Source of the DNA: a virus
Reading direction: 5' to 3' (one strand)
UHGV virus genome: UHGV-1342932
Length of the DNA stretch: 5,904 bases
The translations under genes and the position numbers were made by a program. Of this stretch, positions 50 to 5,904 are shown in pieces. Every line of letters starts with the position of its first letter. The stretch's first letter is position 1. Under the pieces are notes generated by a model that was given only the letters and a program-made list of their open reading frames with translations, was not told the DNA's origin and ran no database searches.

Positions 50-235
50 ATGGTATGCCGTATTAATATGAAAAAAGAATATATCTGGCTTATAATAGCC
101 GCTTTATGTTTGGTAGTAGGTGCATGCACCATTACCATTCAAGTACAGAAGAATAATACAAACAGTAGTTTTGAAAATTCTTCTACGAGTTCAAATAGCG
201 CAGATTCTGCAAGTGTTGACTTAAAAATTAATTAA
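50..235 (+). CDS. small secreted lipoprotein, function unknown; the likely true start is the ATG at 68, giving MKKEYIWLIIAALCLVVGAC...
   Basis: The N-terminus has an n-region (MKKEY), a hydrophobic h-region and a lipobox-like VVGA|C (PROSITE PS51257 pattern). The predicted mature part (~35 aa) is Ser/Asn/Thr-rich. The region upstream of ATG 68 is A-rich with no SD, as for the other genes here. The stop codon is 1 nt before the next gene's start. Confidence 0.5.
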   Translation: MVCRINMKKEYIWLIIAALCLVVGACTITIQVQKNNTNSSFENSSTSSNSADSASVDLKIN

Positions 236-1786: not shown

Positions 1787-1799
1787 TTTCGTTTCGTTG

Positions 1800-1830
1800 A
1801 GTAGGAGAGCATTTCGCCCTCCTACTTTTG
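1800..1830 (+). terminator. rho-independent terminator after the pilot gene
   Basis: An 8-bp perfect stem (AGTAGGAG 1800-1807 pairing with CTCCTACT 1819-1826) encloses an 11-nt loop. It is followed immediately by TTTTG and sits 14 nt after the VP2 stop codon. Confidence 0.55.
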
Positions 1831-1925
1831 TATGGTGTCGCCAACTGCATAGCCCCCAAATTTTTTTTCTTTTTTCTTTTGACAAGCTAAAATTTGGCAT
1901 GGAGTAGATTAGGACAATCAGTTGG

Positions 1926-1962
1926 CATAATTTAATAGAAGCGTAGCGCCTGTTAAATTATG
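1926..1962. promoter_or_regulatory. 10-bp perfect inverted repeat (CATAATTTAA ... TTAAATTATG, 17-nt spacer): candidate protein-binding palindrome or ssDNA hairpin
   Basis: Reading the sequence directly: 1926-1935 is the reverse complement of 1953-1962. Flanking direct repeats TTGGCATAAT (1922-1931) and TTGGCCTAAT (1973-1982) overlap or bracket the palindrome. Confidence 0.35.
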
Positions 1963-1971
1963 GTAACGCCT

Positions 1972-2002
1972 ATTGGCCTAATATACGGAATACCTACCTT
2001 TG
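1972..2002 (+). promoter_or_regulatory. candidate Bacteroidetes-type promoter: -7 TACCTTTG at 1995-2002, weak -33 ATTG at 1972-1975
   Basis: There is an exact TAnnTTTG match at 1995-2002. A TTG-containing element lies 19 nt upstream. The motif sits in the long non-coding region and is oriented toward rep. Confidence 0.3.
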
Positions 2003-2069
2003 CTTTTCAAAATAAATAAGAAATAAAATTTACCATCAGCACACCATATTTAAGAGTAAATTCAGCGCC

Positions 2070-2153
2070 GCCGGAGTGCGAAAAAGGAAATGTCAAAAAC
2101 GTAAAGCAAGCCGTCGTAGCGGCGTGCGTTTTTGATATTTCCCGCGCTCCGGC
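2070..2153 (+). promoter_or_regulatory. GC-rich nested stem-loop element (outer 11-bp stem enclosing a GC hairpin flanked by A5/T5)
   Basis: The outer stem GCCGGAGTGCG (2070-2080) pairs with CGCGCTCCGGC (2143-2153), with one T.G. The inner hairpin is GCAAGCCG (2106-2113) / CGGCGTGC (2120-2127) with loop TCGTAG. AAAAACG (2095-2101) is the reverse complement of CGTTTTT (2127-2133). This is a local GC island in an otherwise AT-rich spacer. Confidence 0.45.
2095..2133 (+). terminator. intrinsic-terminator-like hairpin with T5 (and symmetric A5) inside the rep leader: possible attenuator or bidirectional terminator
   Basis: A GC-rich stem (2106-2127) is followed by GTTTTT (2128-2133). The matching A-tract upstream makes the element symmetric. 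Confidence 0.35.
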
Positions 2154-2273
2154 TAAGCCTCTTCTTACCCTTGTATTTGGATTGTGAAACCACCACTATT
2201 TCCGGAACGGCAAAATCTTCCCCCATCAATTTTGCTCTCTCCTCTTGGCCTACTTATGAAATAGTGACTAACT

Positions 2274-2305
2274 CTTGCATATTTAAGATGTATTTCCTAT
2301 CTTTG
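2274..2305 (+). promoter_or_regulatory. candidate Bacteroidetes-type promoter abutting the rep start: -7 TATCTTTG at 2298-2305, -33-like CTTG at 2274-2277
   Basis: The TAnnTTTG match is exact and ends 4 nt before the rep ATG at 2310. Spacing to the upstream TTG is 20 nt. This would imply a leaderless or near-leaderless rep mRNA. Confidence 0.3.
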
Positions 2306-2309
2306 CACC

Positions 2310-3896
2310 ATGAGTTGCTTGCATCCTATAGAAATTGTAAATGCAGCAGGGAATTTGCTTCATGTTCCTTGTGGAAAGTGTTATGCATGTTTGAATAAGA
2401 AACGCTTTGATAATCAAGCAAAGGTTGACCTTCACATGCAAAAGCACAAGTACAATTTATTCTTCACTGCAACATATTCCGATAGGTATCTCCCTACGTA
2501 CAAAGTGTCTCGTGTGTCTAATTCTCGTATGGTGATAGAGCAAAAAACAGAACGTCAACTTTTTAACGACCCGTTCATGCATAAGCTTTGTTTTACGTAC
2601 AAGTCAGAGGAAGATAAGCGTTTATATGAACTCCCCTTTCAGCGCAAATATCATCCTACTCGTAAAAATAGGCGTGCTCATGTAGGCACTCATTTTGATT
2701 TGATTCATCAACACGACTCCTTCGGTGTTCTTTCAAAAAGAGATATTCAATTATTTTTAAAATCAATACGAAATGAAACAGTTAGAAAACAAAAAGGTGG
2801 AATTCTCCGAGGTTCTTGTAAGTTCTCCTACTATATTTGTGGCGAATATGGACCCGAACGCTTTCGCCCGCATTACCATGGTATCATCAGCACCAACGAT
2901 GAAGAGTTCGCAAAGTTCCTATCCGAAGCTTTACCTAAAATTTGGACATTGGGTGATTTGCGTATCGAGTATTCCAAAGGAAGTTCCGCTGGAAACTATT
3001 GTGCGGGATACGTTAATAGCTTTGCACGTTTACCTAAAATATACAGCTACAAACGTTTTCGGCCTTTCGTCCTCCATTCTACGTACTACGGTTATTCACC
3101 GGCTGAAGACCTTAATAAAGATATCGCAGAAATTACCTATCAATATCTTGCTGAACGAAACTATCTCATTAATGGTAAGTTACGTACAATTTCTCCCTCC
3201 CTTTCGTTTCAACATCATTTATTCCCCCGATGTTTTAGATATGACGAAAGCCCTGGGTATGTCCTTTTCTTACGGTATACACTCGTATCTCGATTGGCTG
3301 ACGCGATTAGGCGCGAATCAGGAGTCTACCCTGAGTCAATCTCTGAAATGATTTCTTATTTAAATACAGGTAGGACAAAATATGATATATCTATTGCTTC
3401 TGGAGGTTATACTCTCAACTATCTTTTTCGTGGCAGCTCTAATATTTCTAGTGCTGTCCGTTCGGCGCTCTATTTATCTTCCCGATTTTTTCGGTTGTGT
3501 GACCGCTACAATCGTTCTCCTCGTGAGTATTTTGATATTATACGACGATATTATGAGGACAAGTCATCCGCAGACTATCTTCGATTTTGTAGGAGTAGAG
3601 CTTCTAGGCCTATAGACTATCCTCTCGAGGACTATGTATTTGATTACACAAATATTTCATCTGAATCTGACCCCGCAATGTATTTGAAATCCGATATTCC
3701 GGACAAACGTTCTTCTTTTAAGCGGCTTTTTTATCTATCTTCATTTCTTGGTAAGGATTTCTACGATTTAGCTAGACATAATTCATCCTTCCAGAATAGC
3801 TATAGGTATAAGGAGCTATATATGAATCATTCTCGCACTTTTGAGAACTCTATAAAACATAAAAAACAAAATGAAAAAAATTGCATTTTTGAATAA
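2310..3896 (+). CDS. rolling-circle replication initiation protein (VP4 / protein A-like), 528 aa
   Basis: The N-terminus carries a Cys cluster (PCGKCYAC). RCR motif 1 is FFTATY (aa 51-56). The HUH motif RPHYHGII (aa 187-193) is at nt 2871-2888. The catalytic YCAGYVNS (aa 230-237, nt 2997-3020) is close to phiX174 A's YVAKYVNK. This is the largest ORF in the window. Confidence 0.9.
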   Translation: MSCLHPIEIVNAAGNLLHVPCGKCYACLNKKRFDNQAKVDLHMQKHKYNLFFTATYSDRYLPTYKVSRVSNSRMVIEQKTERQLFNDPFMHKLCFTYKSEEDKRLYELPFQRKYHPTRKNRRAHVGTHFDLIHQHDSFGVLSKRDIQLFLKSIRNETVRKQKGGILRGSCKFSYYICGEYGPERFRPHYHGIISTNDEEFAKFLSEALPKIWTLGDLRIEYSKGSSAGNYCAGYVNSFARLPKIYSYKRFRPFVLHSTYYGYSPAEDLNKDIAEITYQYLAERNYLINGKLRTISPSLSFQHHLFPRCFRYDESPGYVLFLRYTLVSRLADAIRRESGVYPESISEMISYLNTGRTKYDISIASGGYTLNYLFRGSSNISSAVRSALYLSSRFFRLCDRYNRSPREYFDIIRRYYEDKSSADYLRFCRSRASRPIDYPLEDYVFDYTNISSESDPAMYLKSDIPDKRSSFKRLFYLSSFLGKDFYDLARHNSSFQNSYRYKELYMNHSRTFENSIKHKKQNEKNCIFE

Positions 3897-4149: not shown

Positions 4150-5904
4150 ATGGCAAACATCATGGATTTTAAGTCGGTGAAAAATAACGTTCACCGCGCC
4201 GGGTTTGACCTTTCCTCCCGTATGTGTTTTACTGCAAAGGTTGGAGAGATGCTTCCGGTTAAGTATTGGGATTTATTACCTGGTGACTCCTTTGAAATTG
4301 ATGGTAAAAGTTTTATGCGAACTCTCCCGGTCCAGAAGGCTACATTTGGACGTATTCGCGAGTATTATGATTTTTACTTTGTTCCATACAACCTTCTTTG
4401 GGATAAATTTGAATCATGGATTGTTCAAACTAAAAACGCCTATCACGCTAAAAGCAACCTAGCTGCTGCGGATAATTTTACCACATCTCCGTATTTGACG
4501 GATACTGATATTGTAGGCGCTCATTCTTCAATGGGCTCTAATGAATCTCAAGCGTATCTTGATTATTGGCATGTAGGTACGGATAAAGCAAAATATGCTC
4601 AAGGAGATATGTCAAAACTTCTCACTTATCTTGGCTACCCTGTGACTATAGCTCCTTCCGGTGTAGAGAATGTTGCATTATCCCCATTCCCCCTTTTGGC
4701 ATATCATAAGATATACCAGGACTATTTCCGTTTTTCTCAATGGGAAGACGCTGCTCCTTGGACTTATAATCTGGATTATATCCTATCCGAAGATAAACTC
4801 CATATGGACATACCCGGCATGATGAAAGGCCGTACAGGTAATACGCCGACAATTTTCACTCTCCATCATGTAAATTTTGACAAAGACCTTGTAAATGGTA
4901 TGCTTCCTCAGCCCCAGTATGGCGATGTTGCTATAGCTGGTCCACTTACAGGTGATTTTTCAGGACTTAGTGCTGTTTGGGCTACATCTGGCAATTCTAA
5001 AGACCTTGTAGTTAACGCTTCTGCACATCAATCTGGCCATGAATTCTTCCCGGCAGGTTATGATTCAAAATCTACTACTACTGGATCCGGTATAGACCCG
5101 GTTAAATTCCGTTTAAATGGGTATTCCGGCTCGCCTGTTAATGTTGTATTAAATCAGGTTCACCCCCATAATACACCATTTAACCTTCCTATTTCTGGCT
5201 CAAATATCTCTGCTGGTCTTTCAATACTTGTTCTCCGTCAAGCTGAAGCCCTCCAGAAGTGGAAGGAAATTACGCTTTCTGGAGACTCCGATTATAAAGA
5301 ACAGATTAGCAAGCATTGGAATGTTCCATCGTCTCAGTATAATTCATATCGTTGTCAATATCTCGGTGGTTTCGCCCGTAATCTTGATGTATCCGAGGTA
5401 ATTAATACCAATCTTCAAGGAGAAGAAGGCGTTGCCGATATTGCCGGTCGAGGTCTTTCTGCTTCTAATGGTAAGATTCACTTCAAAAACAATGACCTTT
5501 ACGGTATAATAATGTGTATCTATCATGCAAAACCTCTTGTAGAATGGAATTCATTGAATATACTCCATCCCTGCTTGACAAAGGTAAAATCTACGGATTA
5601 TGCTATTCCTGAGTTTGATAGTATTGGTATGCAGCCTCTTCTTCGTTTGAATATTATGTACGCTGGAAATTCTCCTACGGTTCCCGCAGGTTATGTTCCT
5701 CGCTATGCTGAATATAAGACGGATTTGGATATGTACAAAGGTTCTTTTGCAACAACGAATGTGAATTGGATTCTGCCCCACACCCTTACTACGGTTAGTC
5801 AGACACAAGCCCCACTCACTTATCGTGCGTTCAAGGTACCCCCTACGATTTGTGATAATATGTTTATCGCAAAAGTTGATAATACAACAAGTACAGACCA
5901 ATTG
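4150..5904 (+). CDS. major capsid protein (VP1/F-like), 3'-partial; at least 585 codons open to the window edge; alternative start at 4162
   Basis: The frame is stop-free from the ATG at 4150 to the last base of the window. Characteristic Microviridae VP1 blocks are present: LPGDSFEIDG, FPLLAYHKIYQDYFR, SILVLRQAEALQKWKEI, GVADIAGRG and YGIIMCIYHAKPLVEW. The ORF is absent from the supplied ORF track only because no stop occurs inside the window. Confidence 0.93.
   Translation, partial: MANIMDFKSVKNNVHRAGFDLSSRMCFTAKVGEMLPVKYWDLLPGDSFEIDGKSFMRTLPVQKATFGRIREYYDFYFVPYNLLWDKFESWIVQTKNAYHAKSNLAAADNFTTSPYLTDTDIVGAHSSMGSNESQAYLDYWHVGTDKAKYAQGDMSKLLTYLGYPVTIAPSGVENVALSPFPLLAYHKIYQDYFRFSQWEDAAPWTYNLDYILSEDKLHMDIPGMMKGRTGNTPTIFTLHHVNFDKDLVNGMLPQPQYGDVAIAGPLTGDFSGLSAVWATSGNSKDLVVNASAHQSGHEFFPAGYDSKSTTTGSGIDPVKFRLNGYSGSPVNVVLNQVHPHNTPFNLPISGSNISAGLSILVLRQAEALQKWKEITLSGDSDYKEQISKHWNVPSSQYNSYRCQYLGGFARNLDVSEVINTNLQGEEGVADIAGRGLSASNGKIHFKNNDLYGIIMCIYHAKPLVEWNSLNILHPCLTKVKSTDYAIPEFDSIGMQPLLRLNIMYAGNSPTVPAGYVPRYAEYKTDLDMYKGSFATTNVNWILPHTLTTVSQTQAPLTYRAFKVPPTICDNMFIAKVDNTTSTDQL

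What the first reader, a model, noticed from the sequence alone, without database searches (positions are those of the whole stretch)
1787..2309. Unusually long (~520 bp) structured non-coding region between the pilot gene and rep
Microviridae genomes are normally packed almost without spacers, and here every other junction is 25 nt or less or overlapping. This 523-bp gap, about 9% of the window, contains a terminator, a pyrimidine tract (T8CT6CT4, 1861-1880), a perfect 10-bp palindrome, direct repeats, two TAnnTTTG motifs and a GC-rich nested hairpin. It is the obvious place for the things gokusho/alpa-like phages must have but which are poorly mapped. Those are the complementary-strand (ss-to-ds) priming site, the rep promoter and regulation, the Rep binding site or origin, and possibly a prophage attachment or recombination site.
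Basis: partly seen in the sequence, partly recalled or inferred. Interest (0 to 1): 0.6.

Follow-up and report, generated by a model that had tools for sequence, protein, structure and literature searches.

The report
Structured replication-control spacer of a microvirus
The 523-base gap between the pilot and replication genes of this small gut phage is a real, conserved, non-coding control region made of DNA hairpins, and it contains a three-stem motif shared by all related Bacteroidales microviruses examined, which is a testable candidate for their unmapped replication origin.

Summary
The window is a complete circular 5,904-nt microvirus genome from a Bacteroidales-associated, Alpavirinae-like group. 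The gap 1787-2309 is real and non-coding. It folds far better than chance (z = -9.9 as DNA). It is modular:

- a conserved terminator hairpin (1800-1830);
- a 197-nt cassette, "block 2" (1839-2035), forming a long AT-rich hairpin capped by a GCGTAGC mini-hairpin. It is 97% identical in a phage whose genes are only 65-78% identical;
- a variable GC-rich hairpin (2066-2155);
- an 80-nt three-way-junction motif, "motif M" (2193-2272);
- a Bacteroidetes-type Rep promoter (2274-2305) ending 4 nt before the ATG.

A covariance model finds motif M once per genome, always on the + strand, in all 22 or so lineages where the spacer was available. 15 of 18 pairs show compensatory changes. Rfam has no match, and I found no paper describing it.

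Best reading: an RCR-plasmid-like layout. The hairpin cassettes would be the complementary-strand origin and motif M the Rep-cognate viral-strand origin. The swapped assignment is a serious rival.

There is no dif-like attachment site here, although relatives integrate through this spacer. Long pilot-to-rep spacers are normal in this group. The reported 10-bp palindrome does not exist.

The parts
1800..1830 (+). Intrinsic-terminator-like hairpin (AGTAGGAG...CTCCTACT) followed by TTTTG. It closes the MCP-to-pilot transcription unit.
   Evidence: Fold z = -4.7. Inverted repeat I8. Conserved in all clade members, with a compensatory double change in L002. Also present in L135.
1839..2035 (+). Block 2, a horizontally shared cassette. 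It forms a 174-nt imperfect hairpin (arms 1858-1890 and 1999-2031, inner hairpin 1921-1967).
   Evidence: DNA fold -34.7 kcal/mol, z = -6.6; the minus strand gives -30.2. Nearly invariant in 10 of 11 clade genomes and replaced by a different GC-rich hairpin cassette in L003 and L027b. 97% identical over 198 nt in L135, whose MCP and pilot are 65-78% identical. Seven pairs show compensatory changes.
1861..1880 (+). Polypyrimidine tract T8CT6CT4. It is the 5' arm of the block 2 hairpin and pairs with the A-rich arm 2007-2031.
   Evidence: (I1).
1941..1947 (+). GCGTAGC mini-hairpin (GNA triloop) at the apex of block 2.
   Evidence: It is the only GCGNAGC on either strand of the whole genome. The N position varies (T, G, C) among clade members while the flanks stay invariant.
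1972..2002 (+). Bacteroidetes-type promoter-like element, ATTG-N19-TACCTTTG, on the 3' arm of block 2.
   Evidence: In the folded ssDNA the -33 element is paired, the -7 element lies at an internal loop, and the downstream arm pairs with the T-tract. Conserved across the clade; L004 has TATCTTTG. Function is inferred.
2066..2155 (+). Block 3, a variable GC-rich nested hairpin (arms 2070-2085/2138-2153 and 2086-2101/2127-2142). Its apex 2110-2123 contains C-GTA-G at 2115-2119.
   Evidence: -31.5 kcal/mol, z = -5.9; the minus strand gives -27.1. Relatives carry a different, longer sequence at this position that also forms a 25-bp hairpin capped by GCGNAGC, with 7 compensatory pairs. Block 3 is absent in L135.
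2193..2272 (+). Motif M, a conserved three-way junction. P1 is 2194-2202/2258-2266. P2 is the mini-hairpin CCG-GAA-CGG at 2202-2210. P3 is 2210-2216/2229-2235 with a pyrimidine-rich loop at 2217-2228. The single-stranded J3/1 at 2236-2257 carries the conserved CTTGGC at 2244-2249. TGAC at 2265-2268 follows P1.
   Evidence: Invariant across the clade; identity 0.96 in 2202-2251. Covariance model R1 gives one hit per genome, + strand only, 35 hits plus 13 more. 93.7% of cells are paired against 62.7% when shuffled, and 15 of 18 pairs have compensatory changes. RNAalifold independently recovers P2 and P3.
2274..2305 (+). Rep promoter, CTTG-N20-TATCTTTG. The last base lies 4 nt before the Rep ATG at 2310, which predicts a leaderless or near-leaderless mRNA.
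   Evidence: Relatives have the full consensus TTTG-N20-TATATTTG at the same place. The transcription start position is inferred from the published Bacteroides promoter consensus, recalled from my own knowledge.

Best explanation
The gap is the phage's non-coding replication and transcription control region. It is organised like the control region of a rolling-circle plasmid.

Reading 5' to 3' on the packaged (+) strand:
1. A terminator ends the late MCP-to-pilot operon.
2. One or two large, exchangeable hairpin cassettes follow (block 2 at 1839-2035, block 3 at 2066-2155). Each is capped by a GNA-triloop DNA mini-hairpin. They fold in the incoming single-stranded genome, stay free of SSB, and recruit host enzymes to prime complementary-strand synthesis. 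In other words they behave like a single-strand origin (sso). For block 2 the folded hairpin rebuilds a Bacteroidetes -33/-7 promoter whose template arm is the T8CT6CT4 tract. Host RNA polymerase could therefore make a polypurine primer that is extended leftwards.
3. Motif M (2193-2272) follows. It is a three-way junction that diverges together with the rest of the phage genome. I take it to be the Rep-cognate viral-strand origin, behaving like a double-strand origin (dso). The two-tyrosine HUH Rep would nick in an exposed single-stranded segment, either the conserved CTYGKC of J3/1 or the TGAC at the foot of P1.
4. Directly downstream, a Bacteroidetes-type promoter starts a leaderless rep mRNA.

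What is shown: non-coding status, modularity, conservation, strand specificity, covariation, cassette exchange and promoter conservation.

What is inferred: every biochemical role, and in particular which element serves the (+) strand and which the (-) strand.
For: - Structure. The gap folds at z = -9.9 as DNA. The individual hairpins fold at z = -4.7 to -6.6, and the + strand is 4-4.5 kcal/mol more stable than the minus strand.
- Non-coding. There are no family hits. Cassettes are replaced wholesale and the reading frame is not kept.
- Motif M. One copy per genome, + strand only, always between pilot and Rep. It is found in the window clade, 9 of 9 GenBank relatives, 4 IMG/VR relatives, L029 and 7 prophages. 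No hits occur in host flanks or unrelated loci. 15 of 18 pairs have compensatory changes, 93.7% of cells are paired against at most 50.5% in slid controls, and the covariation score is 0.714 against 0.178.
- DNA-level signature. P2 loops are GNA or GNNA in most instances by my reading of the alignment. This matches the rule for extraordinarily stable DNA mini-hairpins, which occur at G4, St-1 and alpha3 priming sites and in ssiA (PMC13037366). Such heptamers are 5.5-fold enriched on the + strand of the spacers: 5.4 per kb against 0.98 elsewhere and 1.5 on the minus strand.
- Cassette against backbone. Block 2 is 97% identical in L135, whose MCP and pilot are 65-78% identical and whose motif M is strongly diverged. 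Alternative cassettes occupy the same slot within the clade. Exchangeable, host-restricted sso lying upstream of a Rep-specific dso next to rep is the established plasmid pattern (PMC5703833, PMC10378824).
- Rep is a gpA-like HUH protein with two tyrosines. The conserved CTYG resembles the CTTG core of the pC194 nick site (PMC10378824) and of the phiX174 nick site (own knowledge).
- A promoter lies 26-124 nt downstream of motif M in 16 of 22 lineages.
Against: - There is no experimental evidence.
- The CTTG core is CTCG in 4 lineages. The 30-nt phiX174 origin is absent.
- A three-way junction is harder to extrude from a supercoiled duplex than a simple cruciform.
- The GNA mini-hairpin in motif M is itself the hallmark of primase-dependent (-) origins. 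This favours the swapped assignment.
- Conservation of motif M across Reps that are only 25-35% identical could equally reflect recognition by a conserved host enzyme.
- The ssoA signatures are missing. There is no RSB, and CS-6 is only approximated in the window (TAGCGC and TAGCGG).
- The block 2 promoter has an imperfect -33 (ATTG), and in the folded form it points away from the apex, unlike ssoA.
- Block 3 is dispensable: it is absent in L135.
Confidence: 0.45

Rival explanations
1. Swapped assignment. Motif M is the complementary-strand origin, a G4- or ssiA-type single-strand initiation signal. Host primase or a PriA primosome would recognise the SSB-free three-way junction and start a primer in the conserved single-stranded CTYGKC segment 3' of hairpin P3. 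The Rep nick site would lie elsewhere, possibly inside rep as in phiX174. Blocks 2 and 3 would be accessory or redundant priming sites, terminator back-ups or recombination cassettes.
For: P2 is a GNA or GNNA mini-hairpin, including exact GCGAAGC in L020 and L025. The same motif occurs at the G4, St-1 and alpha3 primase start sites and in RSF1010 ssiA as CCGAAGG (PMC13037366). A conserved trinucleotide-containing single strand lies 8-10 nt 3' of a hairpin, as with CTG in G4 (own knowledge). The sequence is conserved across Reps that are only 25-35% identical, which fits a conserved host enzyme. The structure is + strand specific and single copy. Hairpins upstream of rep in other microvirus clades were also read as candidate (-) origins (PMC9865509).
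Against: It leaves the large, conserved, exchangeable hairpin cassettes without a role in a 5.9-kb genome. Motif M always abuts the rep promoter or attP, which is typical of a dso and has no obvious rationale for a (-) origin. Motif M diverges with the backbone while block 2 does not. No other candidate nick motif is found: CTTGATA or CTTG[GT]CC occurs only in motif M.
Confidence: 0.3
2. RNA-level function. The structures act in transcripts, either as a long structured leader from the 1972-2002 promoter that regulates rep translation or stability, or as a small non-coding RNA.
For: The region also folds well as RNA, z = -8.7. A promoter-like element at 1972-2002 could transcribe block 3 and motif M. 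GTAA loops in some P2 instances are GNRA tetraloops in RNA. Covariation cannot by itself tell RNA from ssDNA.
Against: There is no Rfam match at E <= 1. A transcript from 1972-2002 would lack the 5' arm of block 2, so the most conserved hairpin could not form in it. The conserved Rep promoter lies downstream of motif M, so the main rep mRNA excludes every structure. The GNA triloop preference with N free to vary is a DNA rule (PMC13037366). The upstream terminator limits read-through.
Confidence: 0.1
3. Prophage attachment or recombination site. The spacer carries a XerC/XerD dif-like attP used for chromosomal integration, as in Bacteroidales microvirus prophages.
For: In distant relatives the prophage ends fall in this spacer, downstream of motif M, at dif-like repeats. 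L118 has TCATAATGTGTATTAT and L119 has CATAATACCGATTATAT. Published for BMV proviruses (PMC3091885).
Against: The window gap has no match to the Bacteroidales dif-like sequence (<= 3 mismatches) or to the CATAA-N6-TTATG core (<= 2 mismatches). All contigs of this clade are about 6 kb or a concatemer. No close relative occurs in 185,579 species-representative genomes. The only integrated phage that shares block 2 recombined inside rep, not in the spacer.
Confidence: 0.03
4. Hidden protein-coding sequence. In many relatives the Rep frame is open for 159 nt upstream and gene callers report a 587-aa Rep. Small ORFs also overlap the gap.
For: 8 of 11 relatives have the extended ORF. Many database entries are 587 aa.
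Against: The extension is closed or out of frame in the window, L002, L007 and many 534-aa clusters. The 85-nt core is invariant at all codon positions, so the constraint is at the nucleic-acid level. The conserved promoter lies inside the supposed extension. There are no family hits for any gap ORF. The region's pairs covary.
Confidence: 0.02

Closest known systems
Control region of rolling-circle plasmids (sso upstream of dso upstream of rep; pC194/pUB110, pMV158, pT181 families)
   Same: A large orientation-specific imperfect palindrome of about 150-200 nt lies in a non-coding region upstream of a Rep-specific origin next to rep. The sso-like part is an exchangeable cassette while the origin travels with rep. 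The Rep is an HUH protein. A CTTG-like core resembles the pC194 nick CTTGATA (PMC5703833, PMC10378824).
   Different: The host is Bacteroidales, not Firmicutes. There is no RSB and no exact CS-6 in the window. The candidate dso is a three-way junction rather than a simple hairpin with bind repeats. The replicon is a phage, not a plasmid.
Primase-dependent complementary-strand origins of microviruses G4, St-1 and alpha3, and ssiA of RSF1010
   Same: Clustered + strand hairpins lie in an intergenic region of a microvirus. GCGNAGC/GCGNNAGC-type mini-hairpins sit at their tips. A conserved single-stranded segment lies 3' of a hairpin (PMC13037366).
   Different: There is no sequence similarity. 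The location differs (pilot-rep rather than F-G). The architecture is a three-way junction. The host primase specificity is unknown.
phiX174 viral-strand origin (30-nt site in gene A, nick CAACTTG|A)
   Same: The Rep is gpA-like with HUH and two tyrosines. The candidate site has a pyrimidine-rich run followed by CTTG on the + strand.
   Different: The 30-mer is absent. The candidate lies outside rep and is embedded in a conserved secondary structure. The core is CTYG, not strictly CTTG.
Ff (M13) minus-strand origin, F plasmid Frpo and ssoA: promoters rebuilt by ssDNA hairpins
   Same: Folded block 2 places a -33 element in duplex, a -7 element at an internal loop and a template arm downstream. 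This resembles ssDNA promoters used by host RNA polymerase for priming (own knowledge; PMC5703833).
   Different: The promoter elements are of the Bacteroidetes type. The direction is away from the apex. Nothing has been tested.
dif-like attP of Bacteroidetes-associated microvirus proviruses (Alpavirinae; Krupovic and Forterre 2011)
   Same: The gene order and spacer are the same. Relatives carry the dif-like site 34-251 nt downstream of motif M (PMC3091885).
   Different: The window clade has no dif-like site and no upstream DUF5675-like ORF, and it has not been seen integrated.
Conserved hairpins upstream of rep in reekeekee- and roodoodooviruses
   Same: Intergenic hairpins next to rep with conserved loops and compensatory stem changes, proposed as possible (-) strand initiation sites (PMC9865509).
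   Different: These are different microvirus clades with simple hairpins of 13-64 nt. Here there is a multi-element 0.5-1.5 kb region and a family-wide three-way junction.

Membership tests
ssoA-type single-strand origin | Large imperfect palindrome of about 160 nt in a non-coding region, functional in one orientation | tested here: inconclusive
   Block 2 is a 174-nt hairpin with z = -6.6. The + strand is 4.5 kcal/mol more stable than the minus strand, and the GNA apex exists only on the + strand. Functional orientation dependence is not testable here.
ssoA-type single-strand origin | RSB consensus TTATGCCGAGAAAATTT | tested here: not met
   No match with up to 3 mismatches anywhere in the window.
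ssoA-type single-strand origin | CS-6 (TAGCGT/A) in the apical loop | tested here: not met
   No TAGCGW in the gap. The apices read TAGCGC (block 2) and TAGCGG (block 3). Relatives' block 3 apex does read TAGCGT.
ssoA-type single-strand origin | RNA-polymerase-dependent primer synthesis | not testable with these tools
   Only a promoter-like geometry in the fold is available.
G4-type primase-dependent (-) origin / ssi signal | SSB-resistant hairpins with GCGNAGC/GCGNNAGC-type mini-hairpins on the viral strand | tested here: met
   GCGTAGC at 1941, C-GTA-G at 2115 and CCG-GAA-CGG at 2202. There is 5.5-fold + strand enrichment in the spacers of 14 genomes.
G4-type primase-dependent (-) origin / ssi signal | Defined primase start trinucleotide 3' of the hairpin, and primase dependence | not testable with these tools
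   A conserved CTYGKC lies 8-10 nt 3' of P3. The Bacteroidales primase specificity is unknown.
phiX174-type viral-strand origin | 30-nt consensus CAACTTGATATTAATAACACTATAGACCAC | tested here: not met
   The first 18 nt have no match with up to 3 mismatches. Only a CTTG core is shared.
phiX174-type viral-strand origin | Cognate gpA-like Rep with HUH and two catalytic tyrosines | tested here: met
   PF23343 and phrog_942 hits. Invariant HxH and YxxxY columns in the Rep alignment.
phiX174-type viral-strand origin | Origin located inside the rep gene | tested here: not met
   The candidate lies 38 nt upstream of the Rep ATG.
XerCD/dif-type attP of Alpavirinae proviruses | 28-bp dif-like site in the phage genome | tested here: not met
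   No dif-like match in 1787-2309.
XerCD/dif-type attP of Alpavirinae proviruses | Integrated copies flanked by dif-like direct repeats | tested here: not met
   None found for this clade. Met in the distant relatives L118 and L119 and, inside rep, in L135.
Rfam RNA families / tRNA | Covariance-model match | tested here: not met
   Nothing in the gap at E <= 1. No tRNA or tmRNA.
Bacteroidetes sigma-A-type promoter (TTTG / TAnnTTTG) | -33 TTTG and -7 TAnnTTTG separated by 19-21 nt, upstream of a gene | tested here: met
   2274-2305 reads CTTG-N20-TATCTTTG. Relatives have a perfect TTTG-N20-TATATTTG. Transcription itself was not tested.

The most novel reading that the evidence does not exclude
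Motif M is a previously undescribed, group-wide replication origin of Bacteroidales (Alpavirinae-like) microviruses. It would be a three-way-junction ssDNA structure lying outside rep, in which the HUH Rep nicks an exposed CTYGKC or TGAC segment. That would differ from the unstructured, intragenic phiX174 paradigm.

Block 2 would be a horizontally exchanged single-strand-origin cassette. It would rebuild a Bacteroidetes promoter in the folded viral strand so that host RNA polymerase primes on a polypyrimidine template.
Probability: 0.3. Interest if true: 0.75.

Novelty: new variant of a known kind. Interest (0 to 1): 0.6.

Why it matters
Microviruses of this kind are among the most abundant ssDNA phages of the mammalian gut. 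In the searchable library I found no paper that mentions both Alpavirinae and an origin of replication.

This analysis turns an unannotated 0.5-1.5 kb stretch into a set of defined, testable parts:
- an 80-nt covarying three-way junction, found in every related lineage tested where the spacer was available;
- exchangeable hairpin cassettes capped by GNA mini-hairpins;
- a leaderless rep promoter.

It gives a covariance model that marks the element and the genome orientation. It flags the 587-aa Rep gene calls as probable over-extensions. It shows that the modular sso/dso logic of plasmids may also apply to phages of Bacteroidales. The elements are obvious starting points for building replicons or reviving metagenomic microviruses.

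Tried and rejected
- Megablast of the whole genome and blastn of the gap against GenBank phages and PLSDB plasmids gave no match.
- Rfam at E <= 1 gave only a chance snoRNA hit outside the gap. ARAGORN found nothing.
- The sigma-70 promoter and terminator scans were no better than shuffles and are the wrong model for Bacteroidetes.
- Exact-word scans of IMG/VR for block 2 and motif M returned only the clade itself.
- A gapped pattern, CCGGAACGG-N45-65-TGACTAA, returned mostly random large contigs and was abandoned in favour of a covariance model.
- Searches for dif-like sequences, RSB, the phiX174 origin and CS-6 were all negative in the gap.
- L121 was first taken for a circular form of the L119 prophage, but it is only a fragment of the same locus.
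- The idea that the inner hairpin of block 2 mimics dif, in the manner of CTXphi, was rejected because only 8 nt match.
- The 11-nt direct repeat CATATTTAAGA is not conserved and was dropped.
- The 587-aa Rep extension was rejected as coding sequence; the reasons are given under the hidden-coding rival.
- The host of L135 was not identified.
Full report
**1. What the window is.**
The 5,904-nt window closes into a circle. The major capsid ORF runs from about 4150 across the end to 66. The gene order is MCP, a small lipoprotein-like ORF (50-235), a scaffold-like ORF (237-686), pilot (683-1786; PHROG pilot families), the gap, Rep (2310-3896; PF23343 and phrog_942), an 85-aa ORF, and back to MCP. 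Rep is gpA-like, with an HxH motif and a YxxxY pair that are invariant in an alignment with distant relatives.

There is no near match in GenBank phages. IMG/VR holds 11 genomes with 83-100% identical Rep, one of them being the window itself. Public protein collections hold 36 clusters at 78-96% identity, then a jump to 35% and below. Several clade contigs come from human gut assemblies.

**2. The observation.**
The gap 1787-2309 is exactly as described in size and position. It folds at z = -9.9 as ssDNA and -8.7 as RNA. The pyrimidine tract, the terminator-like hairpin, the TAnnTTTG motifs and the GC-rich nested hairpin are all present. The perfect 10-bp palindrome is not; the longest is the 8-bp TTCCGGAA. 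The direct repeats are not conserved.

The premise that such a spacer is exceptional fails within this phage group. Nine GenBank relatives have 1.0-1.5 kb between pilot and Rep, with few or doubtful small CDS. The closest relatives have 665-833 nt, so the window has the shortest version.

**3. Anatomy from comparison.**
An alignment of the spacer in 11 clade genomes and a whole-genome identity profile resolve five modules.

- **Terminator hairpin (1800-1830).** It is conserved, with a double compensatory change in L002.
- **Block 2 (1839-2035).** This is a 174-nt AT-rich imperfect hairpin whose 5' arm is the T8CT6CT4 tract. Its apex is GCGTAGC, the only GCGNAGC in the genome. It is nearly invariant in 10 genomes. 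In L003 and in the second copy of L027 an unrelated GC-rich hairpin cassette replaces it.
- **Block 3 (2066-2155).** This is a GC-rich nested hairpin unique to the window. L002 has a third version. The other relatives have a longer sequence with a 25-bp hairpin capped by GCGNAGC.
- **Motif M (2193-2272).** It is invariant in the clade; identity is 0.96 where coding DNA is typically 0.78-0.93.
- **Rep promoter.** A -33/-7 promoter of the Bacteroidetes type ends 4 nt before the Rep ATG. It is a perfect TTTG-N20-TATATTTG in relatives.

Block 2 and the relatives' block 3 each show seven pairs with compensatory changes. The N of their GNA apex varies (T, G, C, A) while the flanks do not.

**4. Motif M is a group-wide structured element.**
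Comparison with L029 (Rep 35% identical) and with prophages first showed that both stems change sequence but keep pairing. A covariance model built from 12 instances then found exactly one hit per genome, always on the + strand and always between pilot and Rep. The hits cover:

- the clade;
- all 9 GenBank relatives fetched;
- 4 distant IMG/VR genomes and L029;
- 7 prophages, including Prevotella and Muribaculum MAGs.

There were no hits in host flanks or in unrelated loci.

On the model-derived alignment, 93.7% of cells pair against 62.7% in shuffles and at most 50.5% in slid controls. 15 of 18 pairs carry compensatory changes, and the covariation score is 0.714 against 0.178. The alignment is fitted to the model, which inflates these figures somewhat. 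RNAalifold nevertheless recovers P2 and P3 on its own, with all nine pairs compensated.

The consensus has these parts:
- P1, CACTTTTG/CAAAAGTG (CACTATTT/AAATAGTG in the window);
- P2, a 2-3 bp mini-hairpin with GAA, GGA, GTA, GCA or GTAA loops;
- P3, a 7-9 bp stem of free sequence with a pyrimidine-rich loop;
- J3/1, a single strand of about 22 nt containing CTYGKC;
- TGAC at the foot of P1.

**5. DNA or RNA?**
Three points argue that the structures act in single-stranded DNA.

- GNA triloops closed by C-G, with N free, follow the rule for extraordinarily stable DNA mini-hairpins. These are found at the primase start sites of microviruses G4, St-1 and alpha3, in ssiA of RSF1010 and in N4 hairpin promoters (PMC13037366). 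In 14 genomes such heptamers are 5.5-fold enriched on the + strand of the spacer, relative to the rest of the genome and to the minus strand.
- The conserved Rep promoter lies downstream of every structure.
- A transcript from the internal promoter-like site (1972-2002) would lack the 5' arm of block 2.

**6. Cassette against backbone.**
A metagenome scan for the block 2 apex found 14 further clade genomes and one 410.9-kb bacterial contig, L135. L135 carries an integrated, clearly different microvirus: MCP and pilot are 65-78% identical at the nucleotide level and its motif M is diverged. Its block 2, however, is 97% identical over 198 nt. It has no block 3.

So block 2 moves between phage backbones or is under extreme constraint. 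Block 3 is dispensable. Motif M diverges with the backbone. This is the pattern described for rolling-circle plasmids, where host-restricted sso cassettes are shuffled while the dso stays with its rep and lies next to it (PMC5703833, PMC10378824). It is the main reason I assign the hairpin cassettes to complementary-strand priming and motif M to the Rep-cognate viral-strand origin.

Supporting details:
- The only CTTGATA- or CTTG[GT]CC-like site in the genome is in motif M. This resembles the CTTG core of the pC194 nick (PMC10378824) and the phiX174 nick (own knowledge).
- In folded block 2 the -33 element is duplex, the -7 element sits at an internal loop and the T-tract is the downstream template arm. 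This is the geometry of ssDNA promoters used for priming.

All of this is inference.

**7. The main rival.**
The mini-hairpin in motif M, its conservation across very divergent Reps, and a conserved single strand 3' of a hairpin also fit a G4- or ssiA-type priming signal. I give the swapped assignment 0.3 against 0.45. The weaknesses of my preferred model are that CTTG is CTCG in four lineages, that the phiX174 30-mer, RSB and exact CS-6 are absent, and that a three-way junction is not easy to extrude from a duplex. I am confident (about 0.85) only of the general statement that this is a cis-acting, ssDNA-level replication and transcription control region.

**8. Attachment site.**
In the distant prophages L118 and L119 the phage ends lie in this spacer, 59-178 nt downstream of motif M, at dif-like direct repeats. 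This agrees with Krupovic and Forterre (PMC3091885). The window gap has no dif-like sequence. Its clade has never been seen in a contig longer than a concatemer. No close relative is present in 185,579 representative genomes. In L135 the crossover (TCGGCATTAT, within a dif-like site) is inside rep. The attachment-site idea is therefore not supported for this genome.

**9. Coding potential.**
Gap ORFs have no family hits. The 159-nt upstream extension of Rep seen in 8 of 11 relatives is closed in the window, L002 and L007. It contains the promoter and motif M. It is invariant at all codon positions. It is best treated as an annotation artefact.

**10. Novelty.**
Hairpin-rich origins, sso/dso modules and mini-hairpins are all known kinds. 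Hairpins next to rep have been noted in other microvirus clades (PMC9865509). The specific three-way-junction motif, its distribution across the group and the exchangeable block 2 cassette were not found in Rfam or in the literature I could search. I rate this a new variant of a known kind, with interest 0.6.

Noticed in passing
window 2773-3351 (+), inside rep in another frame: A 192-aa ORF overprinted on rep stays open in every clade member, and at 181-233 aa in distant relatives. It is 37% identical over 180 aa between the window and L029, whose Rep is 35% identical. It could be a real overlapping gene, as B and K lie within A in phiX174. It has no PHROG family.
   Followed up: partly
L135 6700-7210 and 13100-13200 (410.9-kb metagenome contig): An integrated microvirus whose recombination crossover (TCGGCATTAT in a dif-like site, GAATCTAA-TCGGCA-TTATATTGAAT) lies inside rep. 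The gene is therefore split between the two prophage ends and would be restored on excision.
   Followed up: partly
window 50-235 (+): A conserved 61-aa ORF with a lipoprotein-type signal (MKKEYIWLIIAALCLVVGAC) between MCP and scaffold. It has weak PHROG hits, including a superinfection-exclusion family (E = 0.06). Relatives place a small membrane ORF after pilot instead.
   Followed up: no
L027 1977-2126 (-); remnants in L028, L011 and L135: A 49-aa minus-strand ORF (METVKLSSEEWMDVCYALSSKKRQLEEMGLEEEAKNMERIRMLISVQLL) is inserted between the terminator and block 2 in some clade members and decayed in others. It would be the only minus-strand gene in these genomes.
   Followed up: no
L027 (9,505-nt JGI contig): A 1.5-unit concatemer whose two spacer copies carry different cassettes (block 2 type and GC-rich L003 type). 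It is either a chimeric assembly of co-occurring variants or a recombinant multimer.
   Followed up: no
L119 15530-15587 and 15946-16003: A perfect 58-nt inverted repeat flanks 358 nt of hairpin-rich spacer that contains that phage's motif M. Two assemblies break at it.
   Followed up: no
relatives L003-L011, about 159 nt upstream of the Rep ATG: Many public Rep entries for this clade are 587 aa because gene callers start at an upstream ATG. The extension contains the promoter and motif M and is probably not translated.
   Followed up: yes
window 4378-4411 (+), inside the MCP gene: A second full TTTG-N18-22-TAnnTTTG promoter consensus is conserved in most clade genomes within the 5' part of the capsid gene. 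TAnnTTTG is enriched genome-wide: 14 found against 6.2 expected.
   Followed up: no
window about 4400-5900 (MCP gene): Nucleotide identity among clade genomes appears to fall from 0.8-0.9 to 0.2-0.6 across the capsid gene. This may be a hypervariable region, or partly an alignment or rotation artefact of my whole-genome alignment.
   Followed up: no
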